Assembly: GCA_964523395.1 (NCBI GenBank)
Contig: CAZFXS010000004.1
Location: forward strand, 141,581 to 205,580
Source of the DNA: an uncultured Chlorobiaceae bacterium
Lineage (GTDB): Bacteria; Bacteroidota; Ignavibacteria; UBA10030; SZUA-254
Direction of reading: 5' to 3'
DNA: 64,000 bases
The position numbers and the translations under genes are program-made. Each line of letters begins with the position of its first letter. The stretch's first letter is position 1. Below the pieces are notes generated by a model. It was not told where the DNA came from. It saw only the letters and a list, made by a program, of their open reading frames with translations, and did not search any database. Positions 5,223 to 63,550 of the stretch are shown one piece after another.

Positions 5223-5233
5223 GAGGATTTGCA

Positions 5234-5301
5234 CATTGAATCATGTATTCATTGAATCATTGGAAAAGCTTTTCAATGTAACAATGATTAAATGAACAAA
5301 T
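5234..5301. repeat. Inverted pair of octamer arrays between convergent genes (possible terminator)
   Basis: CATTGAAT CATGTATT CATTGAAT CATTG, central palindrome AAAAGCTTTT, then CAATGTAA CAATGATT AAATGAAC. Confidence 0.7.
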
Positions 5302-5792: not shown

Positions 5793-5897
5793 TGTTTACT
5801 TCCTGATTAACTTGCATCCAATCTAAATATTTCCATATTATTTACAAAGGAAGGAATTGAGTCATCGAGCCATTGAATCAATGAGTAAATTCTAATT

Positions 5898-6245
5898 ATG
5901 CCTCAACCCGGATATACACTATCTTCTCTCGTCGAAAATGCTGACCACCTCCGGCAGCTTCCCAAATCGAGTTTACAACCGGGCACATGGGTATTTGTGA
6001 AAACTGCAAACTCGGTGTACACAGTTCATATTCTTCAGGATGGCTTCTGCAAAGTGTCGGGAGGATGGTTCGACCGCAAAGGACTTTCACCGGCCACGAC
6101 ACGTATCAGCGGATGCACGTGGGGTGGAAGCACGATTAAAATCGATATCGCAGCAGCGTGCGGGCTCTGCATGGAGTTCGGCAACCGTCTCGTTACAACA
6201 CCCATTCAGAAAATTGTTGTTCTTCCCGGGGGATGTGAGAATTAG
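5898..6245 (+). CDS. Hypothetical protein (115 aa, beta-rich)
   Basis: ATG-started ORF filling the gap; candidate promoter TTGCAT-N18-TATTAT at 5812-5841; family not recognised. Confidence 0.6.
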   Translation: MPQPGYTLSSLVENADHLRQLPKSSLQPGTWVFVKTANSVYTVHILQDGFCKVSGGWFDRKGLSPATTRISGCTWGGSTIKIDIAAACGLCMEFGNRLVTTPIQKIVVLPGGCEN

Positions 6246-6248
6246 GAG

Positions 6249-6326
6249 AGCATTGAGACATTGATTCATTTGTTCATTGGTTCATTTTCTAATGTCCAAA
6301 TGATTCGATGAATCAATGATTCAATT
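6249..6326. repeat. Inverted pair of octamer arrays
   Basis: CATTGAGA CATTGATT CATTTGTT CATTGGTT CATT...CAAATGAT TCGATGAA TCAATGAT TCAAT. Confidence 0.7.
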
Positions 6327-14461: not shown

Positions 14462-14493
14462 TTGAAAATTGCAAATTGTAAATCGTAAATTGT
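14459..14493. repeat. Heptamer array abutting and including the mfd TTG start
   Basis: CAATTGA AAATTGC AAATTGT AAATCGT AAATTGT on the + strand. Confidence 0.75.
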
Positions 14494-14692
14494 ACAGTTA
14501 CCCTCTGACCCCTTATCATCGGTTGCATTTCCAACACTGCGTTCATCATTTCCGTAACTACAAAACACTCCACCCCTACCGCAAAGATTCGCCAGAACTT
14601 TCGCAGTAAGGGTGAACTAACATACGCAAGAAGAGATCGATTTGCAAGACTTCGGAATGAAATTCATATAACAATTTTGTATGTTGGATGCC

Positions 14693-17548: not shown

Positions 17549-17572
17549 GTCCATTTGAGAAATGGACGCTAC
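17549..17572 (-). repeat. GTAG-family REP
   Basis: Reverse strand GTAGC GTCCATTT CTC AAATGGAC. Confidence 0.9.
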
Positions 17573-17598
17573 ACCTCGCAGGCTAAAAATGTAATCAT

Positions 17599-18187: not shown

Positions 18188-18230
18188 AATTCCTCCCATT
18201 ATGACTTAATTGATTTGGCTAAACCCTAAA

Positions 18231-18344
18231 GTCCATTTATGAAATGGACGCTACCCCTGCCTTATGGGGAAAAAAAGAAACATGTAGCATCCGATTCTCA
18301 ATCGGATTATTGCTTCGTGAGTCCATTTACGAAATGGACGCTAC
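18231..18344. repeat. REP cluster: single REP 18231-18254 and REPIN 18284-18344
   Basis: (-)GTAGCGTCCATTTCATAAATGGAC; (+)GTAGCATCCGATTCTCAATCGGAT; 13-nt spacer; (-)GTAGCGTCCATTTCGTAAATGGAC. Confidence 0.92.
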
Positions 18345-19198: not shown

Positions 19199-19358
19199 AC
19201 GTAGGGTTCCTTTAAAATTTGTGCGACACAATGTAAGGAATACACAAGAAAAATGCCATGAAAAACTGAAGACTGTTTGGAGGTTTGAATTTTGGGTATT
19301 GAGTAATCTTTGGCAACTCAAAACTCACATCTCAAAATTCAAAACATTATTCCCTCTT

Positions 19359-21369: not shown

Positions 21370-21488
21370 TTTCGAAATTCGGATTTGGGATTGCGAATTT
21401 AAGATATTTATAACTTTCAATCGCCGATTTACAATTTATTGGTTCTAAACTTTTTTAATTTTGAATTTTTACTTTTGACTTATTGCTT
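21370..21488. repeat. Two heptamer arrays
   Basis: GATTTCG AAATTCG GATTTGG GATTGCG AATTTAA after ogg; TTTTAAT TTTGAAT TTTTACT TTTGACT TATTGCT directly before ATG 21489. Confidence 0.75.
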
Positions 21489-29619: not shown

Positions 29620-29704
29620 GTAACATCCGGACTATCCGCCATCTCTCTGGCGGATTCGCAACCGAATTATAGCAATATATGTCCATTGAAGAAATGGACA
29701 CTAC
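29620..29704. repeat. REPIN whose left REP is split by a 24-nt hairpin insertion
   Basis: GTAACATCCG | GACTATCCGCCATCTCTCTGGCGG | ATTCGCAACCGAAT, 13-nt spacer, (-)GTAGTGTCCATTTCTTCAATGGAC. Confidence 0.75.
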
Positions 29705-29714
29705 CGCTTTCCTG

Positions 29715-33036: not shown

Positions 33037-33083
33037 TTTAGAATTTTTTACTTTTTAATTTTGAATTTTTACTTGCTTTTATC
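33037..33083. repeat. Heptamer array directly before a start codon
   Basis: TTTTTAATTTTGAATTTTTACTT (33052-33074) is identical to 21452-21474. Confidence 0.75.
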
Positions 33084-41670: not shown

Positions 41671-41807
41671 GTAGTACCCGTTTTGCAAAAGGGTTTTACG
41701 CCTGTGTCCGATTAAGAATCGGACGCTACGCGTATGCGCGGAGATCATGTAGCATCCGTTTCGTAAACGGATCTTACACCTAAGTCCGATTGAGAATCGG
41801 ACGCTAC
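41671..41807. repeat. Two tandem 59-nt REPINs (period 78)
   Basis: (+)41671-41694, (-)41706-41729, (+)41749-41772, (-)41784-41807; related 11-nt spacers TTTACGCCTGT and CTTACACCTAA. Confidence 0.9.
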
Positions 41808-45006: not shown

Positions 45007-45529
45007 TTTTTTTAGATGTGTGATTTGAACGGTCATCGATAACAATCGTTTCGGCAATGCGGTCGTGAACAGTACGGCGATCTGTTCGGAGAAAGTACTG
45101 GAAAAACCCAAAGCCGAGCTCCAGCGCTGACGCGCCATACCCGAGCGAGCGCTCGAATGAATGCCAGAGACTCATCTGTTCATGCACCAGCGAAACGATG
45201 CGGATGCGGCAGATTTTTTTACCAATCGTTTGTCCGTTAAAGAAATAAACGCTCAGCGTGAAGTAGCCAACCAGCCAGACAATGCTGTACCAGTTCTTAA
45301 AGAATGTAAATTGCAGATTAATATGCTCATCGGAAGAAATGATTCCCGTTTTCTGAATAAGAATCCCGCCGCCGACAGTGATCCCGACGAATAAAATTCC
45401 CGCGATCAGAAAATCGAGCAGAAGCGCAATCGCCCGGCGCGGGAATGATGCCAGAGGCAAACCTGAAAGCACTGACTCCCGAGAAGGATCTGGAGGACAA
45501 TAATTATTTTGATTAATATTTCCACTCAT
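44993..45529 (-). CDS. RDD-family membrane protein
   Basis: LASFPRRAIALLLD, GQTIGKKICRIRIV, HDRIAETIVI; start 45529 or 45592. Confidence 0.9.
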   Translation of the reverse strand: MSGNINQNNYCPPDPSRESVLSGLPLASFPRRAIALLLDFLIAGILFVGITVGGGILIQKTGIISSDEHINLQFTFFKNWYSIVWLVGYFTLSVYFFNGQTIGKKICRIRIVSLVHEQMSLWHSFERSLGYGASALELGFGFFQYFLRTDRRTVHDRIAETIVIDDRSNHTSKKNDRS

Positions 45530-45601
45530 TTTTTTTGGAACATGCTCTCGAATGTACCCATAACTTTGCAGAAACTCAATGCTTTCCTTCATGCCGGTGT
45601 G

Positions 45602-45663
45602 TGTCGCCCGATACCGACATCAACACGCCAATCAGCCATCTCTTTTGTCGCCCTGTAACGACA
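45602..45663. promoter_or_regulatory. Two candidate enhancer (UAS) palindromes
   Basis: TGTCG-CCCGATAC-CGACA (45602-45619) and TGTCG-CCCTGTAA-CGACA (45646-45663), 44 bp apart. Confidence 0.7.
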
Positions 45664-45684
45664 GATTTTATCGATTTTCTTTAA

Positions 45685-45697
45685 AATCAATTATTTC
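45685..45697 (+). promoter_or_regulatory. IHF-like site
   Basis: AATCAATTATTTC versus WATCAANNNNTTR (1 mismatch), in an AT-rich stretch between the UAS and the core promoter. Confidence 0.45.
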
Positions 45698-45723
45698 AGC
45701 TCTTTTTCTCCACTTTTAAGCAA

Positions 45724-45738
45724 CGGCACGGGATTTGT
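45724..45738 (+). promoter_or_regulatory. Putative sigma54 (-24/-12) promoter
   Basis: CGGCACGGGATTTGT versus consensus TGGCACGnnnnTTGC; GG-N10-GT, so the -12 C is replaced by T. Confidence 0.6.
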
Positions 45739-45777
45739 CAGTATCTCACCTGTTCATTCACGCACATTAAACAGTTC

Positions 45778-45972
45778 ATGCAAAAACACATACTCATCAT
45801 CGATGATGATACACAGGAGCTTCGCAAGTTAAGAGAGATTCTTACACGCGAAGGGTACGATATCATGACGGCAACTGATAAGCAGACGGCAATTCAGATT
45901 TCCGAGAAAGTACCAATCGGTTTTATCCTTGCAAAAGCATCGATGCTCGGTTTTCCCAATGAAAAACAATAA
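45778..45972 (+). CDS. Half-receiver micro-protein (64 aa) lacking the phospho-acceptor Asp
   Basis: ILIIDDD...LREILTREGYDI.TA; third strand GFILAK has no Asp; protein ends there. Confidence 0.75.
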   Translation: MQKHILIIDDDTQELRKLREILTREGYDIMTATDKQTAIQISEKVPIGFILAKASMLGFPNEKQ

Positions 45973-46002
45973 TCATTCACATTCATTTATAAGGTAATCT
46001 CT

Positions 46003-48096
46003 ATGAACACTTTGTTGAAAACGATTTGTATTGCTCTTTGCGTTTATACAACCGGTCTGTCTCAATGGCTGCAAACTTCGGGTCCGGAAGGCGGCGCCGC
46101 CTTCGCAATCTTTGCCGACGGCAGTAATCTCTACGCGGGTATGGCGGGAAATGCCGGAGTGTTCCGGTCAACCGACGGCGGTGCGACCTGGGAGCAAAAA
46201 ATCAACGGCATGAACTATCAGTCCACCACTGTTATTAGCAAAAGCGGTTCCTATCTTCTCGCCACCGGAACTGTCGGTTTGTACCGCTCAACCGATAACG
46301 GCGACACCTGGGTTGCGGCTACAGGATTACCGCCGGGACACGGCGTGAACTCACTGGCAGTTGACGGAGCGAATGTTATCGCGGGAACATCCGGAAAAGG
46401 CATTTATGTTTCAACCGATAATGGCGATACATGGACACCTGCAAGCACAGGACTTCCCGGCGCAGGCGCCACCACCACGGTCGGAAATGTTGTTATCAAC
46501 GGTTCAACCATTCTCACCAGCGCTTCGGATTTCGGTACGACAACAACAATGTACCGTTCCACAAATTTTGGCGCTTCATGGACAGCGGCTGCGACCGGCC
46601 TTCCCGCCGATTATTCATTGTATTACGGAATGTGCATCGACGGATCTACAATCTATGCCGGCGGCGCGTATCTTTATAAAACTACCAACAACGGCGACAC
46701 CTGGACACCGGTCGAGAATGGAATTCCCAACTACTCCAGCATCATGAGTATTTCCGCAAACGGGACTTCCATCTTCGCGGCTGCAATGAATTACATCTAC
46801 CGCACTACGGATGGCGGCTCTAACTGGAGTCCAGCAACCGGCGGTTTGCCGTTTATGAATTTCATGTCGGTACGGATTGCAGGTTCAACTGTCTACGCCG
46901 GTTCAATTGCCAATGGTATATACAGTTCAACGGATAATGGGGTCACGTGGACACAAAAAGTCAACGGTTTAAAGGCAAGAGATATGAGTGGATTCCTTAT
47001 CGACGGGACGACGCTCTATGCCAACGGCAACAGCATATTCAAGACTTCAGATAACGGAGATACGTGGGAGAATGTTCGCGGCAATCTTAAAGACTCCTCA
47101 AGCATGCCTACACTTGTGTATGTCAACGGTTCAACGATGTTCGAACGCGATTTCCCGGCGACAGGCCTCGAGCGTTCAACGGACGGCGGCGCTACATGGA
47201 CTGTCGTTGGCAACGGTTTGTCACCATTCGGCACTGTCACCGGAATCGTCGATGTCCCTGGCGGATTGCTGACTGCCAGCAACCGTGTCTATAAAAGCAG
47301 TGATAACGGCGATAACTGGGTGCAGGTTGATTCATCGCTTGGATTGTTTGTCAGTTTTTCAGCTTTGACAAAAATCGGCACTACTGTTTATGCATATGGA
47401 CTCGGGGTTGCCAAATCCACAGACGACGGGGCAACATGGGTAAAAGCCGATTCTGGTTTGCCGGCGTTTTATTCACCGTCTACTCTTGTCGGAAATGGTT
47501 CAGGTTTATACGTATCAAGCGGGTTTACGTCTGGCATCTATCGTTCAACCAATGACGGGCAATCATGGTCGTTGTGGACCAGCGGCGCTTATTCACAACT
47601 GCTCATTCACGGAAACGACCTTTTCGGATGCCGGGACAATGACGGCATCTTCATTCGTAAAAACTTCACAGGCGCTTTTACCAGAATTTCTACCGGGCTG
47701 CCGAGCCCTAATTTCCTTTACACGTTTGTCATCCACAATGGATGGATGTTTGCAGGTACCGGCGGTAATAGTGTCTGGCGCAGGCCTTTGTCGGATGTTA
47801 CGGCTGTGGAAGAGATCGCCGGAACTCTTCCAACGGAGTTTATGCTTTCTCAGAATTATCCAAACCCGTTTAATCCAATGACAAACTTCGAATTACGAAT
47901 TGCGGATTTCGGATTTGTGACGCTTCGGGTGTACGATGTACTTGGAAGGGAAGTTACATCTCTGGTGAACGAGACGCTTCAACCCGGGACCTACAAAGTA
48001 TCGTGGGACGCAGGCAATCAGACCAGCGGAGTTTATTATTATAAACTACAGGCGGGAAATTATTCCGAAACGAAAAAGATGTTGCTCGTCAAATAA
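46003..48096 (+). CDS. T9SS type A sorting-domain protein with BNR/Asp-box propellers
   Basis: Signal peptide; many S(T/S)D(N/G)G.TW Asp-boxes; QNYPNPFNP...VYDVLGREV...GTY...GVYYYKL...KKMLLVK. Confidence 0.9.
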   Translation: MNTLLKTICIALCVYTTGLSQWLQTSGPEGGAAFAIFADGSNLYAGMAGNAGVFRSTDGGATWEQKINGMNYQSTTVISKSGSYLLATGTVGLYRSTDNGDTWVAATGLPPGHGVNSLAVDGANVIAGTSGKGIYVSTDNGDTWTPASTGLPGAGATTTVGNVVINGSTILTSASDFGTTTTMYRSTNFGASWTAAATGLPADYSLYYGMCIDGSTIYAGGAYLYKTTNNGDTWTPVENGIPNYSSIMSISANGTSIFAAAMNYIYRTTDGGSNWSPATGGLPFMNFMSVRIAGSTVYAGSIANGIYSSTDNGVTWTQKVNGLKARDMSGFLIDGTTLYANGNSIFKTSDNGDTWENVRGNLKDSSSMPTLVYVNGSTMFERDFPATGLERSTDGGATWTVVGNGLSPFGTVTGIVDVPGGLLTASNRVYKSSDNGDNWVQVDSSLGLFVSFSALTKIGTTVYAYGLGVAKSTDDGATWVKADSGLPAFYSPSTLVGNGSGLYVSSGFTSGIYRSTNDGQSWSLWTSGAYSQLLIHGNDLFGCRDNDGIFIRKNFTGAFTRISTGLPSPNFLYTFVIHNGWMFAGTGGNSVWRRPLSDVTAVEEIAGTLPTEFMLSQNYPNPFNPMTNFELRIADFGFVTLRVYDVLGREVTSLVNETLQPGTYKVSWDAGNQTSGVYYYKLQAGNYSETKKMLLVK

Positions 48097-48130: not shown

Positions 48131-50230
48131 ATGAAAATGTTTGTGTGTGTGCTCGCGACTATTGTGCTCTGTAACATTGCAGCGGCTCAATGGATACAAA
48201 CAAATGGTCCATCCGGCGGTACTGTGACACGTCTTGTCACTAATGAGACAAACGGTTACCTTTTTGCGCTGGCAAGCGGTGACGCGTACCGTTCAACCGA
48301 TCAAGGTACCACCTGGACGCGAAGCACTGCCAGTCTTCAGGCAAATCTCGGCGCTACTACAATAACAGCATCGGGAACATCGGTCTATATCGGCATCGGA
48401 AGCGGAAATACCACATATATCCTCTCCCGTTCGACCGATAACGGCGACACATGGACACCGGCAACCGCAACAGGCATACCGGCATTCTATATTCCTTCCG
48501 CAATGACAGTTACCGGTTCCAGACTGCTGCTCTACGCAACCTACCTTCTTGGTGGAGGAAAAATGTTCGCTTCCACCGACGGAGGTGAAAATTTTACCGA
48601 ATCCGGAGCAGGTTTACCGACCAATTTCGCCGCAGGATATTTTACGCAGAAGGGTTCAACAATCTTTGCCAGCAACACTAACCCGGGAATCTATCAATCG
48701 ACTGATAATGGAGTAAACTGGACAAAATCCAATTCTACCATCGGAGGCATCACCGGATTGACATCAAACTCTTCAGGAGTCTTTGTTTCTACCAGCACAA
48801 CCGGAGTTTACCGATCTAATGGCACGGATACGGTCTGGACAAAAATTAATCCCGACACTCCGTCGAACTTTACTTCTTCGATTCTCGCGACATCCACAAA
48901 TCTTTTCATTGCTCTTGGCGGCGCGATGATGCGCGCAGACCAAAATGGTGGCTCGTGGGACAGTGCACGCGTCGGACTCCCACCGTATAACGCAGGCACA
49001 GCCATCAGCGCCATTACTAAAACCGGTTCAAGCATCCTCTGTGCGTACGCAAAGCACGGCATTTACCGCACTACCGATAACGGCGTAAACTGGTTTCAGT
49101 CTCACGAGGGAGTGAAGTCGTTAAAAATCAACGGCATTCATGCAAGCAATGGATATTTATTTGCAGCGGGAGATCAATATGGGAATTTCAGAAGCGCCGA
49201 TCACGGAGACACGTGGACAGAAATCAACAATGGTATTTCCGTAACAGCTGGCTGGTTTTGTTTTGCGCGCGTCGGATCAGATGTGCTCGCAGGCGCCGGT
49301 TCATCTCTGCTGTACCGGAGTTCAGATAACGGAAATAACTGGACATTAAGCAACTCCGGATTCGCTCTTACCAACTCATTCGCGTTTTATGTTGAAGGCA
49401 ACACCGTCTACACCACAGGAGCAGCCGGTGTATCGAAATCGACAGATGGCGGATTGACGTGGAACACGCTTCCTGCGGGTTATCTCTTCTATGAAGGAGG
49501 GCTCGATATCTGGAAAGACGGTTCGAACATCCTGACCGGGTCTAATGTCGCAAGTCATCGCTCAACCGATGACGGTGCGTCATGGACAACAACCGCCGGA
49601 GCGATAGGAGCATTTACACAAATGGATTCAGTTCTTTTCAACGCTTCGCTTACTCTTGGTGTAAGAAAATCAACAGATCATGGTGCGAGCTGGACGGCGA
49701 CAGGAAGTTTTCCGTTTACGGTTGGCCCGCAATGTCTTACGGCCAAAGGGCAGGATCTTTATGCCGGAACGAATGACGGTGTTTATCGCTCAACAAATTA
49801 CGGAACTACGTGGACTGCAATTAATGACGGCTTTGCCCCGAAAACCTCTATCTACAAAATAACATTTGACGACCAGTATCTTTATGCGGGGACAGTTACG
49901 CGCAGTGTCTGGCGGCGGCCGCTTTCCGAAATCACTGACGTGAAGGAAATCTCTCAGGAAATTCCCTCTTCATATTCTCTCAGCCAGAATTATCCGAACC
50001 CGTTTAATCCAACGACAAATTTCGAATTACGAATTGCGAATTTCGGATTTGTGTCGGTGAAAATATTTGATGTGCTTGGAAACGAAATAACGACGCTGGT
50101 AAATGAATCGCTACAACCCGGAACTTACAATGTATCTTGGAATGCAAGCAATCAGCCCAGCGGCGTGTATTATTACAGGCTTTCGTCAGGGTCATTTTCC
50201 CAAACAAAAAAATTATTACTGATGAAATAA
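48131..50230 (+). CDS. T9SS type A sorting-domain protein with BNR/Asp-box propellers (paralog 2)
   Basis: Same architecture; GGAAG upstream. Confidence 0.9.
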   Translation: MKMFVCVLATIVLCNIAAAQWIQTNGPSGGTVTRLVTNETNGYLFALASGDAYRSTDQGTTWTRSTASLQANLGATTITASGTSVYIGIGSGNTTYILSRSTDNGDTWTPATATGIPAFYIPSAMTVTGSRLLLYATYLLGGGKMFASTDGGENFTESGAGLPTNFAAGYFTQKGSTIFASNTNPGIYQSTDNGVNWTKSNSTIGGITGLTSNSSGVFVSTSTTGVYRSNGTDTVWTKINPDTPSNFTSSILATSTNLFIALGGAMMRADQNGGSWDSARVGLPPYNAGTAISAITKTGSSILCAYAKHGIYRTTDNGVNWFQSHEGVKSLKINGIHASNGYLFAAGDQYGNFRSADHGDTWTEINNGISVTAGWFCFARVGSDVLAGAGSSLLYRSSDNGNNWTLSNSGFALTNSFAFYVEGNTVYTTGAAGVSKSTDGGLTWNTLPAGYLFYEGGLDIWKDGSNILTGSNVASHRSTDDGASWTTTAGAIGAFTQMDSVLFNASLTLGVRKSTDHGASWTATGSFPFTVGPQCLTAKGQDLYAGTNDGVYRSTNYGTTWTAINDGFAPKTSIYKITFDDQYLYAGTVTRSVWRRPLSEITDVKEISQEIPSSYSLSQNYPNPFNPTTNFELRIANFGFVSVKIFDVLGNEITTLVNESLQPGTYNVSWNASNQPSGVYYYRLSSGSFSQTKKLLLMK

Positions 50231-50274: not shown

Positions 50275-52440
50275 ATGAACATACTGTTACAGATCTGCCT
50301 GATTATCGTTGCAACATCGCTGACAGTTGCACAGCCTTTTTGGGAACGGTTGCCGGGACCAAATGCTACTCACAGCATTAATTGCCTTAAGGAGGATGCC
50401 GCCGGTGGAAAATTGTATGCCGGTACTGCCCTCGGTGGCGGGATATATGTATCGGCCGATAACGGGGCTACGTGGTCCCTTAAAGCTTCTGGTTTGGATC
50501 CGAACGCTTCAATCCTTGATATTGAAACCGATAACGCCGGCAACGTGTACGCCCTTGGTGTTAAAACATACAAATCAACAAACGGAGGCGATACATGGGA
50601 AAAACTTGACAATAGCACCGACGGCATGACTACATTACATATTACATCCGGAGGAGTTATTTTTGCAGGGCAAGAAACAGCTGTAGGAAACGGGATTACC
50701 AGATCAACCGATGGCGGAACTACCTGGGAATTTGCCAGAACCGGCCTTCCCACAACCATTCTCGGCCCATTCACCTATTATCGCAGTGTCTCGAGTATTA
50801 CCTCCGATGGTTCCGGAAATCTCTACTGCACAGTAAATGGCGGAAATGCGTCCACTGAAGCCGGAGTGTACAAATCAACAAACAATGGCGATACATGGAC
50901 ACGCACAAGCAACGGTTTGCTTGCAAACGTTAGCGTCGAGCCGGTACTGTACAGTCCGAACGGAATGATATATGCCGCGGTCAGAAACCGGGTGTACCAC
51001 AGCACTGACGCAGGCGCAAGCTGGGTTCTCGGCGATTCCATTCCAATGGCGAACTCCACCCTCATCAGCCGGCTGGCGGTGAATTCTTCGCATCAGATTT
51101 TTGCAGGTACAACGGCCGGAGTCTTCCGTGCCGCGAAAGGCGGAATTGGCTGGGCTTCAATCAACGTTCCTTCAAGCAGTAATTACGATTTCATTGTTAC
51201 TTCAGCAAACGCATACCTTGCGGCACCCCTTGAGATCTGGGGAACGCACGGCGGCATTCACCAATCAACCGACGATGGGGCTACATGGAACACATTAAAC
51301 AACGGCATAAATAACACACCGACATTCGCTCTCAAAGTCGGCTCCTCCGGCGTTATTTTGAACGGACTTGGCGGCGGCAGAGTTGAATTCTCTTATGATA
51401 ATGGTGCCACATTTACGCGGGCGTATCTTTCATACACCGGCCTCTTCACATTTGCTGCTCTTGCCGCGTTTGAAGAGAATCCTTCCGGCACCATTGTCGC
51501 AGCAACCGGAGAAGGGCTGCACACATCAACTGATCAAGGTGTTACGTGGACTAAAACATCGTCAGTCTCAAATCAGCGCGCATTGACATTAGACCAGAGC
51601 GGGAATTTTTTCGCAGCCAACGGAAGCGGCGCGTACAAATCAACAGATAACGGACAAACGTGGAATTCACTCGGCGGGGGCGGTGATGCCTATGGCATAT
51701 TGGTAACACAGGCCGGTACAATTCTGACAGGAACGTATAACAGCGGTGTTAACCGCACAACCGACGGCGGTACAACATGGACGAATTCGGGTACCATCGT
51801 GTTTGGTAATGTAACGATAGGAAAATTTGTTCAGCTTGACAATGGAACGATTTATACGCACGCTCTTCTCGGAATTTTCAAATCGACGGATGACGGCGCA
51901 ACATGGGCAGCCCTGACAGGAACACCCATTGGCGTACAATCCAGGAAAATTGAAAGCACCGGCAATATATTACTGCTTGGTACTCCGGAGGGGCTTTACA
52001 AAACCATAGACGGCGGCGCAAACTGGACAAAACACGCCGACGGCCTCATGAATACTGTTCTCGATCATCTTTCTGTTGGACCCGATGGACGGTTGTACGG
52101 CGCAGGCGGCGCCGGAATTTACCGCACAACAAATCCGATTACCACCGGCGTCGAACTATCATCCAATATCATTCCATCAGCGTTCGAACTTACACAGAAT
52201 TATCCGAACCCGTTTAACCCAATGACAAATTTCGAATTACGAATTGCGAATTTCGGATTCGTGACGTTACGTATTTACGATATGCTTGGAAAAGAAGTCG
52301 CATCGCTGATTAACAAAACGCTTCAACCCGGAATATACAAAGTTTCGTGGGACGCGGGTGCACAACCCAGCGGTGTATATTTTTACCGTCTCACCGCAGG
52401 TGAATTTAATCAAACAAAACAAATGATACTCATCAAATAA
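50275..52440 (+). CDS. T9SS type A sorting-domain protein with BNR/Asp-box propellers (paralog 3)
   Basis: GGAGG SD before ATG 50275; Asp-boxes; NYPNPFNP C-terminal domain. Confidence 0.9.
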   Translation: MNILLQICLIIVATSLTVAQPFWERLPGPNATHSINCLKEDAAGGKLYAGTALGGGIYVSADNGATWSLKASGLDPNASILDIETDNAGNVYALGVKTYKSTNGGDTWEKLDNSTDGMTTLHITSGGVIFAGQETAVGNGITRSTDGGTTWEFARTGLPTTILGPFTYYRSVSSITSDGSGNLYCTVNGGNASTEAGVYKSTNNGDTWTRTSNGLLANVSVEPVLYSPNGMIYAAVRNRVYHSTDAGASWVLGDSIPMANSTLISRLAVNSSHQIFAGTTAGVFRAAKGGIGWASINVPSSSNYDFIVTSANAYLAAPLEIWGTHGGIHQSTDDGATWNTLNNGINNTPTFALKVGSSGVILNGLGGGRVEFSYDNGATFTRAYLSYTGLFTFAALAAFEENPSGTIVAATGEGLHTSTDQGVTWTKTSSVSNQRALTLDQSGNFFAANGSGAYKSTDNGQTWNSLGGGGDAYGILVTQAGTILTGTYNSGVNRTTDGGTTWTNSGTIVFGNVTIGKFVQLDNGTIYTHALLGIFKSTDDGATWAALTGTPIGVQSRKIESTGNILLLGTPEGLYKTIDGGANWTKHADGLMNTVLDHLSVGPDGRLYGAGGAGIYRTTNPITTGVELSSNIIPSAFELTQNYPNPFNPMTNFELRIANFGFVTLRIYDMLGKEVASLINKTLQPGIYKVSWDAGAQPSGVYFYRLTAGEFNQTKQMILIK

Positions 52441-55066: not shown

Positions 55067-55106
55067 AGAAGAGGGTGAAGCATTTCTTTCGCCTTCTTCT
55101 TATTTT
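55067..55106 (+). terminator. Putative terminator of the 45778-55038 unit
   Basis: AGAAGAGGGTGAAG...CTTTCGCCTTCTTCT stem with G-U pairs, then TATTTT. Confidence 0.55.
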
Positions 55107-56305
55107 ATCTGCTTGAGTGCCTGGCGGAAATCTTCAATCAAATCATTAATTCCTTCAACGCCGACCGAAATTCTTATCATCCCGGGCGTAACGCCATGCT
55201 GAGCCAGTTCCGCTTTCGTCATGTTGATGTGGGATGAATAGACCGGAATGCTCACAAGTGTTTCCACACCGCCCAATGACATCGCGTTAAGCGCCACACG
55301 GAGTGAATCACATACTTTTGCAGCCGCTTTTACACCGCCTTTTACTTCAATTGTCACCATCCCGCCAAACCCGGCCATCTGTTTCTTGGCAATTTTATGT
55401 TGAGGATGTGAAGGAAGTCCGGGATACAGTACTCGGTTGACTTTAGGATGCTTTTCCAACGCACGCGCGAGCGCCATCGCGTTTCGATTTTGCCGCTCTA
55501 CACGGAGTTCAAATGTCTTCAGGCTACGATCGAGCAGATATGCCGCGAACGGATCGGCGCACCCGCCGAGCGACTTTGCCGTGTCTTTTACTTTCTTAAC
55601 AAACTCTTTTTTTCCGATGATAACGCCGCCCATGATATCGGCATGGCCGGATAAATATTTCGTTGTGCTTTCCATAATAACATCAGCACCAAACCCGAAC
55701 GGCTGCTGATTAAGAACAGACGCGAACGTATTGTCGATCATAACGATTATCTTTGTCCGGTGTTCACGCTCTACTTTTCTTGTGTATTTGACTAATTCTG
55801 CAATATCAACCAAGCCAAGCGTCGGATTTGTGGGTGTTTCGAGATAGAGAAGTTTCGTTCTTGGTGTGATGAGATACAGCAGGTCTTCAAGCGATTTCGG
55901 ATCGACATACTTCACCGTAACACCGTATTGGGGAAGTTCATCACGGAAGAATCTGTATGTGCCGCCATACAATCCCGGCGTGCTTACAATCTCATCGCCG
56001 CTTTTACATATTGTAAGTACTGCCGTTGATATTGCCGCCATACCGGAAGAAAACAGCGCCGCTGCTTCTCCCTCTTCCATCAGCGCAATACGCTTTTCAA
56101 CTTCGTTGACTGTTGGATTGTGATACCGCGTGTACACAAGAACATTCGGATCACCTTTCGCGTACCGGATTGCGTCGTTGGAGTTTTGGAGCCGGTACGT
56201 ACTCGTTTGGTAAATTGGAGTTGTCACAGGCCCGCGGATGCCGGAAGCATGTTTTCCGTGAATGGCGATTGTGGAAAGAGAGAGGGAGGGTTTTCTTTTT
56301 TTCAT
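55100..56305 (-). CDS. PLP-dependent trans-sulfuration enzyme (cystathionine gamma-synthase / methionine gamma-lyase family)
   Basis: PIYQTSTY, YTRYHNPT, FSSGMAAI, ETPTNPTL, DNTF, ESTTKYLSGH, SLGGVETL. Confidence 0.92.
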   Translation of the reverse strand: MKKRKPSLSLSTIAIHGKHASGIRGPVTTPIYQTSTYRLQNSNDAIRYAKGDPNVLVYTRYHNPTVNEVEKRIALMEEGEAAALFSSGMAAISTAVLTICKSGDEIVSTPGLYGGTYRFFRDELPQYGVTVKYVDPKSLEDLLYLITPRTKLLYLETPTNPTLGLVDIAELVKYTRKVEREHRTKIIVMIDNTFASVLNQQPFGFGADVIMESTTKYLSGHADIMGGVIIGKKEFVKKVKDTAKSLGGCADPFAAYLLDRSLKTFELRVERQNRNAMALARALEKHPKVNRVLYPGLPSHPQHKIAKKQMAGFGGMVTIEVKGGVKAAAKVCDSLRVALNAMSLGGVETLVSIPVYSSHINMTKAELAQHGVTPGMIRISVGVEGINDLIEDFRQALKQIK

Positions 56306-56321
56306 TTGTAAAACCGAAAAG

Positions 56322-56632
56322 TATATGAGTAATTGAGATTATGAGTATATGAGACTGAAAATATTACACCAATCGTTTTTGTAATCCGTAAACCATAGCA
56401 ATTACCTCATTCACCGAGTTCGTGGTTTTCAAATATACAGCCATCGCAATGAATTCATTTTCAAGCGCAATATAATGAGTGCTTTCCGATAAACGTTCAA
56501 CTCTTTTAAGCGATGCATATTACTCCTCCCTGCTTTGTTTGTAAAGTTGACTTCTTTATTCTTAAATACTTATTATCTTCCATGCTACGGTGCTCACAAT
56601 CTCATATACTCCACTACTCATCATCTCACATA
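56322..56632. repeat. Inverted octamer arrays flanking the four-helix-bundle relic
   Basis: Left TATATGAG TAATTGAG ATTATGAG TATATGAG (56322-56353); right CTCACAAT CTCATATA CTCCACTA CTCATCAT CTCACATA (56593-56632). Confidence 0.75.
56364..56518 (-). pseudogene. Internally deleted, frameshifted four-helix-bundle (23S-IVP/Avd-like family) gene
   Basis: GGGAGGAG SD; MHRLKELNVYRKAL N-terminus joined out of frame to HYIALENEFI...NEVIAMVYGLQKRLV*. Confidence 0.65.
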
Positions 56633-56633
56633 C

Positions 56634-57401
56634 CTATCTCGCGCACGTCTGCGCCCTTCCGCCATCAATACTGAAGCTTCCGCCTGTGACCCATCCTGCC
56701 TTATCGGATGCAAGGAAGAGAATCAGTTCCGCAACATCTTCCGGTGTACCAACGCGGCCAAGCGGGTGCGTTGACTTACTGTGCTCGAGAAATTTCGTGT
56801 AAACATCTTCCTGCATTCCGCTGGTGCGGTGAAGATTCGTCACAACCACGCCGGGATCAACGGCATTCACTCGTACACCTTTGGGTCCGAGTTCCAGCGC
56901 CGCACAGTGCGTCATCTGGTCAACGCCCGCTTTGCTCACGCAATACGCCAGAACATTGGGAAAAGAGCGGATACCTGTAACGCTGGAAACATTGACGATA
57001 TTTCCTTTCCGTTCTATAATAGAAGGAAGCGCAAGCTGGGTCAGATGAAACACTGACCGCAGATTGATATCGAACATTGCATCCCATTGCTGAAGCGTGG
57101 TGTTCTCAATCGTTCCGTTGCCGATGATACCTGCGGCATTTACAAGGACGTCGATCCCGCCGAAATGGGAGAGAGTTTTTTCGACAACCATCTTGCGGTC
57201 ATCGAGTTTTGTCAGGTCCGCAGCGATAATTAGAACCTGAGCCGGTTTGAGGTTTGAGGTTTGGGATTTGAGTTCGTTACCTCTGCGCGCGACAAACACC
57301 ACGTTCGCGCCACGCTCTACAGCCATGCGCGCCGTGGCTTTGCCGATACCGCTCGATGCGCCGGTAACGATGAAGGTTTTGTTGAAGAATTCTTTGGTCA
57401 T
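56634..57401 (-). CDS. Short-chain dehydrogenase/reductase
   Basis: TGASSGIG, NAAG, NVSS, YCVSK, GGSFSIDGG. Confidence 0.93.
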   Translation of the reverse strand: MTKEFFNKTFIVTGASSGIGKATARMAVERGANVVFVARRGNELKSQTSNLKPAQVLIIAADLTKLDDRKMVVEKTLSHFGGIDVLVNAAGIIGNGTIENTTLQQWDAMFDINLRSVFHLTQLALPSIIERKGNIVNVSSVTGIRSFPNVLAYCVSKAGVDQMTHCAALELGPKGVRVNAVDPGVVVTNLHRTSGMQEDVYTKFLEHSKSTHPLGRVGTPEDVAELILFLASDKAGWVTGGSFSIDGGRAQTCAR

Positions 57402-57402
57402 A

Positions 57403-57474
57403 AGTAAAAATTAAAAAGTAAAAAGTCAAAAAGGAATAGATCTTATTTTTTGCTTTTTCCTTTTGACTTTTTAA
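57403..57474. repeat. Inverted heptamer arrays; one arm encodes the UDG C-terminus
   Basis: AGTAAAA ATTAAAA AGTAAAA AGTCAAA (57403-57430) and TTATTTT TTGCTTT TTCCTTT TGACTTT (57443-57470). Confidence 0.7.
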
Positions 57475-58162
57475 TTAAACATGACTTTGCTTTGCTGAAA
57501 ATTTCATCAAACATGCTTTCTGTTAGCTTCCCCGTAAACGTATTCTGCTGGCTTGGGTGAAAGGACGTAATTAGTGTCTGGTGCTCATTGAGCTCGCACT
57601 GAATTCCATGACCGAACGCCGGCCGCTTTTTCATTGCGGTTCGTCCTGATGCTCTGAATGTATCAAAGATTGTATCGGCCGCGACTTTTCCGAGAGCAAT
57701 AACAACGCGAACATTCACGAGAAGCTCAAGTTCTTTCAGCAAAAACGGGCGGCAGTTCATCAGCTCTTTCGGCAGAGGTTTATTCTGCGGCGGTGCACAA
57801 CGGGCTGAAGCAGTGATGTAACAATCTTTCAGTGTTAACCCGTCGTTACGTGAAATCGATTCAGGCTGATTCGCAAACCCCGCCTTATACAATGCACGAT
57901 AAAGCCAGTCGCCGCTCCGGTCGCCGGTAAACATACGGCCGGTGCGGTTTGCGCCATGCGCGGCTGGCGCAAGTCCGATGATAAGAAGTCTTGCCTTCGG
58001 ATCACCGAAACCCGGCACGGCTTTTCCCCAGTAATTCTCCCCGATGAAACGGGAAACTTTAGTGCGTGCGACTTCTTCACGCCATTTCACAAGACGAGGA
58101 CATGCTTGACATGCTATAACAGTCTTGTAAAGCTTTTGAATGGCGCTGGAGTTATTCGTCAT
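57443..58162 (-). CDS. Uracil-DNA glycosylase, family 5 (UDGb type, 4Fe-4S)
   Basis: CQACPRL, GLAPAAHGANRTGRMFTGDRSG, RCAPPQNKP, FHPSQQNT. Confidence 0.92.
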   Translation of the reverse strand: MTNNSSAIQKLYKTVIACQACPRLVKWREEVARTKVSRFIGENYWGKAVPGFGDPKARLLIIGLAPAAHGANRTGRMFTGDRSGDWLYRALYKAGFANQPESISRNDGLTLKDCYITASARCAPPQNKPLPKELMNCRPFLLKELELLVNVRVVIALGKVAADTIFDTFRASGRTAMKKRPAFGHGIQCELNEHQTLITSFHPSQQNTFTGKLTESMFDEIFSKAKSCLIKKSKGKSKK

Positions 58163-63462: not shown

Positions 63463-63521
63463 GCAGCATTCGATTTACAACCGGACAGAGGCAGAAAATC
63501 CATTTTCGAAATGGATGCTAC
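63463..63521. repeat. REPIN (degenerate left REP, intact right REP)
   Basis: GCAGCATTCGATTTACAACCGGAC, 11-nt spacer, (-)GTAGCATCCATTTCGAAAATGGAT. Confidence 0.75.
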
Positions 63522-63550
63522 GCTTTCTAATAACACGCCCTAAGTTAAAC

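What the first reader, a model, noticed from the sequence alone, without database searches (positions are those of the whole stretch)
56322..56632. Four-helix-bundle gene relic enclosed by inverted octamer arrays: a possible cassette-type mobile element
A strong SD and the N- and C-terminal family-like segments remain, while the middle is deleted with a frameshift. The flanking arrays are reverse complements (TATATGAG versus CTCATATA). Together with gene-less inverted arrays elsewhere in the window, this suggests an array-gene-array unit that inserts between genes and decays to an empty hairpin. The family's function is unknown apart from the related DGR accessory protein Avd.
Basis: partly seen in the sequence, partly recalled or inferred. 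Interest (0 to 1): 0.65.

Follow-up and report, generated by a model that had tools for sequence, protein, structure and literature searches.

The report
Decayed IVS-like four-helix-bundle gene cassette
The spacer between two housekeeping genes holds the broken remnant of a small "four-helix-bundle" gene enclosed by mirror-image short tandem repeats, and the same gene-between-repeats layout recurs in six bacterial phyla and in 23S rRNA intervening sequences, so the two probably belong to one kind of element.

Summary
The 328-bp spacer 56306-56633 lies between an SDR gene and a Cys/Met PLP-enzyme gene, both on the minus strand. It carries two inverted octamer arrays, five TGAGnnnn units and four CTCAnnnn units. 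This pattern gives 5 matches against 0.18 expected and occurs nowhere else in the window. Between the arrays are an SD, an ATG, 15 N-terminal codons, a frameshift and about 36 C-terminal codons.

Sequence searches alone do not prove family membership (best E about 1). Context does the work:
- Relatives carry an intact TIGR02436/PF05635 gene, flanked by inverted heptamer arrays, in exactly this spacer.
- A metagenome holds a longer allele that continues the N-terminus in frame and in family register.
- Both fragments match family proteins in the correct register.

In 12 independent loci the family's genes sit co-oriented inside operons, or in 23S rRNA, between inverted 7-8-nt arrays that fold into a stem enclosing the ORF. 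This is the architecture of 23S intervening sequences.

At this locus the gene was ancestral and was lost several times by ordinary deletion. Active mobility is not shown. I rate it a new variant of a known kind, of moderate to high interest.

The parts
56594..56633 (-). SDR-proximal array: five octamer units (GTATGTGA GATGATGA GTAGTGGA GTATATGA GATTGTGA) that start directly after the SDR stop codon. It forms the 5' arm of the predicted stem.
56523..56530 (-). Shine-Dalgarno sequence GGGAGGAG, 4 nt upstream of the remnant's ATG (56516-56518).
   Evidence: Other genes of the window also have SD-like sequences.
56474..56518 (-). N-terminal remnant, 15 codons (MHRLKELNVYRKALI). The frame-1 ORF runs on out of register to a stop at 56429-56431.
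56473..56474 (-). Left edge of the internal deletion. About 190-205 nt are missing (profile positions about 16-80), which shifts the frame. Two unitigs in run X3 leave the window sequence here and continue in frame as ...ALNLTKEVRTVA and ...ALILTKEVRTGAK.
56364..56470 (-). C-terminal remnant in frame 0 (IALENEFIAMAVYLKTTNSVNEVIAMVYGLQKRLV, stop at 56364-56366). It aligns without gaps to profile positions 82-115 of 119.
56321..56354 (-). PLP-proximal array: four octamer units (TCTCATAT ACTCATAA TCTCAATT ACTCATAT AC), G-poor, ending 15 nt before the PLP-enzyme ATG. It forms the 3' arm of the predicted stem and aligns with the array of relative L018.
56306..56633 (-). The whole spacer, i.e. the decayed cassette. 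In both the minimum-energy and the centroid RNA fold the two arrays pair into a long interrupted stem that encloses the remnant.
   Evidence: -82.2 kcal/mol, z = -2.1
56634..57401 (-). Upstream neighbour: short-chain dehydrogenase/reductase gene, same strand.
55100..56305 (-). Downstream neighbour: Cys/Met-metabolism PLP enzyme gene, same strand.

Best explanation
The spacer is the decayed remnant of an IVS-like cassette. Such a cassette is a ~119-aa gene of the PF05635/TIGR02436 family (also called S23p or four-helix-bundle protein, and homologous to the DGR protein Avd), bracketed by inverted tandem arrays of 7-8-nt units.

Shown:
- The arrays, the SD and ATG, and the two out-of-frame end fragments are in the sequence.
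- Intact cassettes occupy the same SDR-PLP junction in relatives.
- The same layout occurs at 12 independent loci, including a 23S rRNA intervening sequence.
- Array copy number varies between strains that encode identical proteins.

Inferred:
- The cassette has no clear promoter or terminator of its own and is transcribed with the UDG-SDR-PLP gene run.
- In the transcript the G-containing, C-free 5' array pairs with the C-containing, G-poor 3' array. This forms a stem that encloses the ORF.
- As in rRNA intervening sequences, this stem is probably a double-strand RNase (RNase III) substrate that cuts the small cistron out of the host transcript. That would let the cassette reside in transcribed spacers at little cost.
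- The arrays grow and shrink by replication slippage.
- In the window's lineage, an internal deletion of about 200 nt with a frameshift inactivated the gene.
- The arrays persist either because the event is recent or because the PLP-proximal array also serves as the unstructured leader of the PLP gene.

The remnant resembles a different branch of the family (the 'ELxVWxKA' type) more than the resident gene of the sister lineages. The slot may therefore have been refilled by exchange between similar arrays.
For: Same junction in relatives:
- L014, L018, L081, L083/84 and L088 carry intact genes. TIGR02436 E = 1e-29 for the L018 and L014 proteins; the genes in L081 and L083/84 are on record as PF05635. 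L085-L087 have a ~490-nt spacer of the size that holds the gene; I did not read their sequence.
- They are flanked by TTATGAG-type arrays upstream and CTCATAA-type arrays downstream.
- L001 has a 92-aa, internally deleted copy.
- L104 keeps only the PLP-proximal array. L106, L089 and L108 have lost the cassette and carry no TATGAG/CTCATAA-type arrays.
- In a PLP-enzyme tree the gene-bearing loci are scattered over the clade.

The remnant:
- The C-terminal fragment ranks first or second among 2356 window fragments and is in register. The N-terminal fragment aligns from its Met.
- The same real protein, P0208, matches the N-terminal fragment at its residues 1-17 and the C-terminal fragment at its residues 82-115.
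- Unitigs in X3 extend the N-terminus in frame, raising the fam2 profile score from 2.6 to 8.0 bits over positions 1-21.

Generality:
- Arrays flank the family's genes at L082, L165-170, L171, L177, L178 (two genes), L182, L183, L184, L185 (a 23S IVS) and L186 (octamers).
- The statistics against 184 control genes are, the 12-locus table, and the strand polarity of the arms.
- All 8 first-sampled family genes are co-oriented with both neighbours.

Folds: the arrays pair in the window, in L018 and in L182.

Literature (PMC4990558): the Coxiella IVS has a 28-bp terminal stem, is excised by RNase III, carries 2-3 tandem GACAGAT heptamers before the S23p ATG, and its ORF is under reductive evolution.
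Against: - No database search with the remnant reaches significance.
- Neither a pairwise comparison of the spacer interior nor a DNA profile of the orthologous cassette finds it; only the PLP-proximal array aligns with L018's.
- There is no RNA evidence for co-transcription or cleavage. The only candidate runs are of unknown kind and low depth.
- The fold z-scores are modest (-2.1 to -2.7).
- The locus of the longer allele in X3 cannot be fixed from unitigs of 94 and 107 nt.
- Many genes of this genome have their own 7-8-nt arrays, so some arrays may belong to the neighbours rather than to the cassette.
- The sample of 12 loci is small and was not drawn at random.
Confidence: 0.75

Rival explanations
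1. Active mobile cassette. The array-gene-array unit inserts between genes by a dedicated mechanism, and gene-less array hairpins are its empty footprints or its targets.
For: - The same architecture is found in unrelated operon spacers, in a CRISPR cmr operon and in 23S rRNA across six phyla.
- The remnant is closer to another family branch than to the resident gene of the sister lineages (fam 2.5 bits against fam2 5.0 bits). This suggests the slot's content was exchanged.
- A unitig in X2 joins TTATGAG-type and CTCATAA-type arrays with only 25 nt between them.
- L177, L178 and L186 have gene-less array hairpins right beside a cassette.
Against: - At this locus the gene looks ancestral and was lost repeatedly.
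- The L104 deletion junction shows ordinary AAAAT microhomology.
- I saw no target-site duplication, no transposase or integrase next to the cassettes, and no near-identical copies at different sites.
- The window's other hairpins use different repeat units.
Confidence: 0.3
2. The arrays are this lineage's ordinary gene punctuation (leaders, terminators or stabilising hairpins of the SDR and PLP genes). They have nothing specific to do with the small gene, which merely sits between them.
For: - Arrays lie right upstream of several start codons and right after stop codons elsewhere in the window (14462, 19322, 21370, 21452, 33045, 57402).
- L104 keeps the PLP-proximal array without the gene, and L118 has a different heptamer leader before the same PLP gene.
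- Heptamer arrays before start codons are described in other bacteria (PMC4679880), and convergent heptamer pairs are described in Xanthomonas (PMC4692102).
Against: - Arrays are about seven times more frequent around family genes than around 184 control genes of the same loci.
- The TATGAG/CTCATA unit type accompanies the gene at unrelated loci: L082, L171 and L177.
- L106 and L089 lost both arrays together with the gene, while the PLP-enzyme gene stays open over the stretches held.
- The two arrays are reverse complements of each other, which independent leaders would not be.
Confidence: 0.15
3. The remnant is not dead. The frame-0 reading frame (a 26-aa ORF from the ATG at 56444, or a product made by re-initiation or frameshifting after the 29-aa ORF) is still translated and under selection.
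For: - Two haplotypes that both carry the deletion differ at 5 sites. All five are third-codon-position, synonymous changes in frame 0. The chance of this is about (1/3)^5.
- A strong SD is retained.
- The 29-aa ORF ends 13 nt after the frame-0 ATG, a layout that allows termination-reinitiation.
Against: - There are only five differences.
- They could have been inherited by recombination from intact alleles that still circulate in the same community.
- A single C-terminal helix is unlikely to form the bundle.
- The frame-0 ATG has no SD.
Confidence: 0.15
4. Chance. The two short ORFs only mimic amphipathic helices and the spacer never held a family gene in this lineage.
For: All direct searches are non-significant, and the interior has no DNA similarity to the orthologous gene.
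Against: - The top-scoring fragment of the whole window falls in the one spacer where relatives carry the gene.
- The register is correct at both ends: the Met aligns to profile position 1, and the stop comes one residue after the aligned stretch, which reaches position 115 of 119.
- The longer in-frame allele continues the family match.
- The arrays are of the family-associated type.
Confidence: 0.08

Closest known systems
23S rRNA intervening sequences that carry an S23p (PF05635) ORF, as in Coxiella, Leptospira, Brucella and Xanthomonas-type S23p (PMC4990558). One example was read here: Azospirillum lipoferum plasmid AZO_p2, locus L185.
   Same: - Same gene family.
- The ORF sits inside a stem made by terminal inverted repeats.
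- Tandem heptamers stand in front of the ORF, with copy number that varies between strains.
- Expression depends on the host transcript.
- The ORF is prone to reductive decay.
   Different: - Here the element lies between protein-coding genes of an operon-like run, not in helix 9, 25 or 45 of 23S rRNA.
- The units are octamers in the window (heptamers in relatives).
- RNase III excision is shown for the rRNA elements and only inferred here.
Intergenic heptamer simple-sequence repeats: STRR of heterocystous cyanobacteria (from my own knowledge, Mazel et al. 1990), TAACTGA arrays (PMC4679880) and GGGAATC arrays with 70-75 convergent pairs in Xanthomonas (PMC4692102).
   Same: - Tandem 7-nt units in intergenic spacers, often just upstream of start codons.
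- Variable copy number.
- Convergent pairs able to form hairpins.
   Different: Those papers do not mention the S23p/four-helix-bundle gene ('four helix' and 'S23' each occur 0 times in their text). Here the arrays bracket that gene far more often than they bracket other genes.
Avd, the accessory protein of diversity-generating retroelements (PMC10053308 notes its homology to PF05635).
   Same: A homologous four-helix-bundle fold. The Avd pentamer is from my own knowledge (Alayyoubi et al. 2013); PMC4990558 reports the pentameric ring for the Xanthomonas S23p.
   Different: None of the neighbours identified here is a reverse transcriptase: the remnant's neighbours are UDG, SDR and the PLP enzyme. 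The cassette stands alone inside housekeeping operons.
MITEs and other small elements with terminal inverted repeats; integron gene cassettes.
   Same: A short unit bounded by inverted sequences, found in intergenic spacers. One promoterless ORF per unit, oriented with the host transcript.
   Different: - The ends are tandem arrays of a 7-8-nt unit, not unique terminal repeats or attC sites.
- I saw no target-site duplication.
- There is no integrase and no array of cassettes.

Membership tests
PF05635 / TIGR02436 (23S rRNA-intervening-sequence protein, four helix bundle protein) | Significant match to the family profile | tested here: inconclusive
   The remnant has no Pfam or NCBIfam hit at E<=10. 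Local profiles give 5.0-6.6 bits, E about 1-3, in correct register. The longer X3 allele scores 8.0 bits over profile positions 1-21. Genes at the same junction in relatives score E = 1e-29.
PF05635 / TIGR02436 (23S rRNA-intervening-sequence protein, four helix bundle protein) | Complete ORF of about 110-130 aa that forms four helices | tested here: not met
   Only about 15 N-terminal and about 36 C-terminal codons remain, in different frames. It is therefore a pseudogene of the family, not a member in working order.
PF05635 / TIGR02436 (23S rRNA-intervening-sequence protein, four helix bundle protein) | Pentameric ring of four-helix bundles | not testable with these tools
   PDB 2rld matches the relatives' subfamily at E = 7e-48; that entry holds 5 chains. 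PMC4990558 cites Lin et al. 2006 for the pentamer.
23S rRNA intervening sequence (IVS) with S23p ORF | Located inside a 23S rRNA helix | tested here: not met
   The element lies between an SDR gene and a PLP-enzyme gene. Rfam finds no rRNA there.
23S rRNA intervening sequence (IVS) with S23p ORF | Terminal inverted repeats that pair into a stem enclosing the ORF | tested here: met
   Inverted arms are reported. They pair in the minimum-energy and centroid folds, and likewise in the intact cassettes L018 and L182.
23S rRNA intervening sequence (IVS) with S23p ORF | Tandem short repeats ahead of the ORF, with variable copy number | tested here: met
   The window has five octamers and relatives have heptamers. 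Copy number is 1.5, 3.5, 5.5 and 17 units among contigs that encode the identical protein.
23S rRNA intervening sequence (IVS) with S23p ORF | Excision of the stem-loop by RNase III | not testable with these tools
   No usable RNA runs were found.
Transposable element / MITE | Target-site duplication, and a transposase in cis or in trans | tested here: not met
   I saw no direct repeats flanking the arrays. The neighbours are housekeeping genes.
Diversity-generating retroelement (Avd context) | Adjacent reverse transcriptase and a TR/VR repeat pair | tested here: not met
   The neighbours are UDG, SDR and the PLP enzyme. The local family HMM found no other family gene in the window.
Intergenic heptamer SSR (STRR-like) | Tandem units of about 7 nt in intergenic DNA | tested here: met
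   The period is 8 in the window and in L184 and L186, and 7 elsewhere.

The most novel reading that the evidence does not exclude
PF05635 genes bracketed by inverted heptamer or octamer arrays are one widespread class of self-propagating 'intervening-sequence' elements. They colonise transcribed spacers, in mRNA operons as well as in rRNA. The pentameric ring protein recognises its own tandem units, roughly one unit per subunit, and promotes array formation, cassette exchange or insertion. This would explain both the function of this large orphan family and the origin of STRR-type heptamer repeats.
Probability: 0.2. Interest if true: 0.85.

Novelty: new variant of a known kind. Interest (0 to 1): 0.62.

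Why it matters
Three long-standing loose ends may be one phenomenon:
- the function of the very large S23p/'four helix bundle' family, for which each of two searches filled its 8000-candidate limit with hits;
- the origin of 23S rRNA intervening sequences;
- the unexplained intergenic heptamer repeats of cyanobacteria, Bacteroidota, Xanthomonas and others.

If the association holds genome-wide, it gives direct experiments. One can ask whether the ring protein binds its own repeat units, and whether RNase III cuts the array stem. It also gives a way to recognise decayed elements in annotation. The relic in this window is by itself an ordinary pseudogene. Its value is as one stage in a series of decay states seen at a single locus.

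Tried and rejected
- Pfam and NCBIfam scans of the two fragments and of a joined read-through found nothing.
- A word-indexed protein search with the read-through found no candidate.
- phmmer against 1.84 billion representatives gave 0 hits.
- A PDB search gave only a chance hit, 2qgq, at E = 1.6.
- hhalign against the relatives' subfamily gave E = 0.19, not significant.
- A metagenome scan with the read-through found pattern matches but no confirmed relative.
- Pairwise DNA alignment and an nhmmer profile of the orthologous cassette showed no similarity in the interior. The remnant is therefore not a recognisable copy of the sister lineages' gene.
- Exact-protein look-ups of the window's SDR and PLP enzyme found them not on record. 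The source genome is also absent from the species collection; the best match is 77%.
- I looked for intact family genes in the window and found none.
- I looked for the family in 860 kb of fetched loci and found only the three copies at this junction.
- Rfam on the spacer gave only a sub-threshold BsrC match.
- The promoter and terminator scan found nothing above chance inside the spacer, and no terminator between UDG, SDR and PLP on the minus strand.
- RNA evidence: the runs found are of unknown kind and too shallow.
- A first automated flank comparison used wrong ORF boundaries and was redone with the called gene coordinates.
- I first counted the heptamer-like stretches at 47887, 50018 and 52228 as arrays. 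I rejected this because they are coding sequence of T9SS C-terminal domains.
Full report
**What is in the sequence.** Coordinates 56306-56633 are the spacer between two minus-strand genes. One is a short-chain dehydrogenase (SDR, 56634-57401). The other is a Cys/Met-metabolism PLP enzyme (55100-56305). A uracil-DNA glycosylase family gene lies further upstream on the same strand.

Read on the minus strand, five octamer units (GTATGTGA GATGATGA GTAGTGGA GTATATGA GATTGTGA, 56633-56594) start directly after the SDR stop codon. Four units of the reverse-complementary type (TCTCATAT ACTCATAA TCTCAATT ACTCATAT AC, 56354-56321) end 15 nt before the PLP ATG. The repeat finder gives arms of 29 nt at 76% complementarity and a perfect 10-mer. 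TRF sees the 8/16-nt period in one array. The pattern CTCA-N4-CTCA-N4-CTCA with up to one mismatch occurs five times in 64 kb, only in these two arrays and on opposite strands, against 0.18 expected.

Between the arrays lie the SD GGGAGGAG, an ATG (56518), a 29-codon ORF (MHRLKELNVYRKALIILRLKMNSLRWLYI*) and, in another frame...IALENEFIAMAVYLKTTNSVNEVIAMVYGLQKRLV*.

**Is it a relic of the family? Direct tests.**
- No Pfam or NCBIfam match at E<=10.
- No word-sharing homologue.
- No hit at E<=0.001 among 1.84 billion representative proteins.
- No confirmed relative in the metagenome scan.
- hhalign E = 0.19.
- No intact family gene exists anywhere in the window.

I built local profiles from real database proteins. 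One uses 120 members of the Bacteroidota-type subfamily. One uses 120 members of the 'DLxVWxKA' type, retrieved with a probe sequence written from memory. The third combines both.

With the combined profile, the frame-0 fragment is the best of all 2356 six-frame fragments of the window (6.6 bits, E = 1.1). With the second profile it is second best (5.0 bits). It aligns without gaps to positions 82-115 of 119, with its stop one residue further on. The N-terminal fragment aligns to positions 1-13 from its Met.

**Independent evidence.**

(a) The source genome is not in the species collection. The closest relatives are Ignavibacteriota/'Chlorobiaceae' MAGs with 74-77% identical PLP enzymes. In L014, L018, L081, L083/L084 and L088, the same SDR-to-PLP spacer holds an intact 116-aa gene; the L018 and L014 proteins score TIGR02436 E = 1e-29, and the L081 and L083/84 genes are on record as PF05635. 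L085-L087 have a spacer of about 490 nt, the size that holds the gene, but I did not read it. Where read, it is flanked by TTATGAG-type heptamers upstream and CTCATAA-type heptamers downstream. Only the PLP-proximal array of the window aligns with that of L018.

(b) In run X3, a bioreactor metagenome that holds this organism, two unitigs share the remnant's first 14-15 codons. They then leave the window sequence at 56474/56476 and continue in frame: MHRLKELNVYRKALNLTKEVRTVA and ...ALILTKEVRTGAK. This extension raises the profile score from 2.6 to 8.0 bits, gapless over positions 1-21.

(c) One real protein, P0208, matches the N-terminal piece at its residues 1-17 (47% identity) and the C-terminal piece at its residues 82-115 (35% identity).

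Together these make a deleted family gene the best reading. About 190-205 nt (profile positions about 16-80) are missing, which changes the frame. The deleted allele is the only one assembled across the locus in runs X1 and X2 (identical to the window). It also occurs in X3 as a variant with five substitutions.

**A twist.** All five substitutions between the two deletion-bearing haplotypes are third-position, synonymous changes in the frame of the C-terminal fragment. There are two possibilities. That frame may still be under selection. Alternatively, the differences arose in intact alleles and reached the deleted allele by recombination. I cannot decide between these with five sites.

**History at this locus.** The junction shows a full series of states in relatives:

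| State | Loci |
|---|---|
| Intact cassette | L014, L018, L081, L083/84, L088 (L085-87 by spacer size only) |
| 92-aa copy with an internal deletion of about 95 nt | L001 |
| 365 nt of unrecognisable sequence with array remains | L002 |
| Only the PLP-proximal array | L104 |
| No TATGAG/CTCATA-type arrays, spacer of about 20-90 nt | L106, L089, L108 |

In a rough neighbour-joining tree of 160 PLP-enzyme residues, the gene-bearing loci are scattered over the clade, and each gene-less locus is nested among them. This indicates ancestral presence and several independent losses. By my reading of the sequences, the L104 junction is a deletion between two AAAAT microhomologies. That is ordinary deletion, not site-specific excision.

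Decay is therefore well supported, but insertion is not seen here. One hint of exchange remains: the remnant is closer to the second family type than to the resident subfamily of the sister lineages.

**The general architecture.** I sampled family genes at unrelated loci. They are flanked by tandem arrays of a 7-nt unit (8-nt in L184 and L186) on at least one side, and in most by reverse-complementary arrays on both sides:

| Locus | Context | Arrays |
|---|---|---|
| L082 | Ignavibacteria, before a release-factor gene | GATATGA/GATGAGA upstream, CTCATAA downstream |
| L165-170 | Bacteroidales, Fic-gene-HsdM | TTCATAA/TTCAAAA downstream |
| L171/172 | acyl-CoA dehydrogenase-gene-3HCDH | GTTATAA upstream, ACTTATA before the next gene |
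| L177 | dehydrogenase-gene-DUF1015 | AATTATG upstream, ATAACTC downstream |
| L178 | Methylomirabilis, two copies | GGGTTTG/CCCCAAA and ATCAGCG/CCGCTGA |
| L182 | before a DNA polymerase IV-like gene | TCAGC/GCTGA |
| L184 | Picosynechococcus, between cmr2 and cmr3 | AGGAGAT/ATCTCCT |
| L186 | Gemmatirosa | octamers GGGCAGGA/CTCCTGCC |
| L183 | Nostoc PCC 7120 plasmid | CTCTGCC downstream only |
| L185 | a true 23S rRNA intervening sequence on an Azospirillum plasmid | CAGAGGA/TCCTCTG |

Against 184 other genes of the same loci and the window:
- The flanking inverted-repeat score is higher (Mann-Whitney p = 3e-6).
- 6 of 8 family genes exceed the control 95th percentile.
- Period-7/8 arrays occur at 87.5% of family genes against 12% of controls.
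- With 12 loci, 8 exceed that percentile. The inverted arrays of L171 and L186 lie beyond the 110-nt flanks scored; L165 and L183 show an array on the downstream side only.

Further regularities:
- The upstream arm is C-free in 8 of 12 loci and purine-rich in 10 of 12.
- All eight first-sampled genes are co-oriented with both neighbours.
- Among contigs that encode the identical protein, array copy number is 1.5, 3.5, 5.5 and 17 units. The arrays therefore behave as slippage-prone repeats.
- In RNA folds of the window spacer and of intact cassettes, the arrays pair into a terminal stem that encloses the ORF, in both the minimum-energy and the centroid structures (z = -2.1, -2.7 and -2.4).

**What is known.** Warrier et al. 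(PMC4990558) describe the Coxiella 23S intervening sequence as a selfish element. It has a 28-bp terminal stem, is excised by RNase III, and carries two or three tandem GACAGAT heptamers (the number differs between strains) just before the S23p ATG. Its S23p ORF is in reductive evolution. They also cite the old idea that such elements were mobile, with the ORF serving mobility.

Heptamer arrays before start codons are described in PMC4679880. Convergent heptamer pairs in Xanthomonas are described in PMC4692102. Neither paper mentions this gene family. My searches of the paper library found no description of the family's genes outside rRNA being bracketed by such arrays. That is absence of evidence in one library only.

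PF05635 is homologous to the DGR protein Avd (PMC10053308). The Xanthomonas S23p forms a pentameric ring of four-helix bundles (cited in PMC4990558). PDB 2rld matches the relatives' subfamily.

**Mechanism, with status of each step.**
- Shown: the anatomy, the recurrence of the layout, the copy-number variation and the decay series.
- Inferred: transcription with the host operon. No terminator-like site separates UDG, SDR and PLP on the minus strand, and the promoter-like matches are at chance level.
- Inferred: pairing of the arrays in the RNA.
- Inferred: cutting of that stem by RNase III, by analogy with rRNA intervening sequences.
- Inferred: retention of the PLP-proximal, G-poor array as an unstructured leader.
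- Speculative: binding of the ring protein to the tandem units, and exchange of cassettes by recombination between similar arrays.

**Gene-less hairpins.** The window does contain array hairpins without a gene: 5227-5301, 6251-6325, 57409-57476 and 2948-2974, with fold z-scores from -2.3 to -4.7. Their units (CATTGAAT, TTTTTAC) differ from the TATGAG type. Nothing ties them to the family, so the 'empty footprint' idea is open. A unitig in X2 does join TTATGAG-type and CTCATAA-type arrays with only 25 nt between them, but its genomic origin is unknown.

**Verdict.** The thing itself is a pseudogene inside an IVS-like cassette. The wider pattern is the interesting result and needs a proper census.

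Noticed in passing
window 5856-6325: A 115-aa ORF without any Pfam match (5898-6245) is also bracketed by inverted octamer arrays of the CATTGA type (arms 5856-5884 and 6299-6325). It is followed by a strong array hairpin (6251-6325, -30.6 kcal/mol, z = -4.7). This may be a second array-gene-array unit with a different cargo.
   Followed up: partly
window 47887-47916, 50018-50050, 52228-52252: The heptamer-periodic stretch AATTTCGAATTACGAATTGCGAATTTCGG lies inside coding sequence. It encodes ...TNFELRIANFGFV... in the C-terminal secretion (T9SS-type) domains of three tandem paralogous genes, so these TRF hits are not intergenic arrays.
   Followed up: partly
window 17550-17580, 18230-18260, 18318-18340, 29682-29705, 41708-41800, 63510-63535: A family of short palindromic intergenic repeats of the form GTCCAnTTnnGAAnTGGACGCTAC (and the variant GTCCGATTnAGAATCGGACGCTAC) recurs in at least six spacers, three copies in one of them. 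It looks like a REP-like element.
   Followed up: no
window 14462-14494, 19322-19345, 21452-21482, 33045-33075, 57402-57433: T- or A-rich heptamer arrays (TTTTGAA, TTTTTAC, AATTGTA, AACTCAA) lie immediately upstream of start codons of ordinary genes. Two contain TAATTTTG, which resembles the Bacteroidota -7 promoter motif TAnnTTTG (from my own knowledge).
   Followed up: no
L165-L170 (downstream of the four-helix-bundle gene, before hsdM): The TTCATAA/TTCAAAA array between the small gene and the restriction-modification methylase gene has 1.5, 3.5, 5.5 or 17 units in contigs that encode the identical small protein. This variable-number repeat sits right in front of hsdM.
   Followed up: partly
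L184 (Picosynechococcus sp. PCC 7003 plasmid, NZ_CP016476.1): A four-helix-bundle gene with inverted AGGAGAT/ATCTCCT arrays sits between cas10/cmr2 and cmr3 of a type III-B CRISPR operon.
   Followed up: no
window 56367, 56385, 56406, 56430, 56439: The five differences between the window and a second haplotype in run X3 are all synonymous third-position changes in the frame of the C-terminal remnant.
   Followed up: partly
window 45139-46002: This 864-bp stretch has no long ORF. It contains a short receiver-domain-like ORF (MQKHILIIDDDTQELRKLREILTREGYDIM...) and what look like degraded coding segments on the other strand.
   Followed up: no
L118 (metagenome contig Ga0247727_10431707): This is the closest relative of the window's PLP enzyme (87% identity). 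It has a different gene upstream instead of the SDR, and a seven-unit AATCATG/AAACCTA-type heptamer leader before the PLP start.
   Followed up: no
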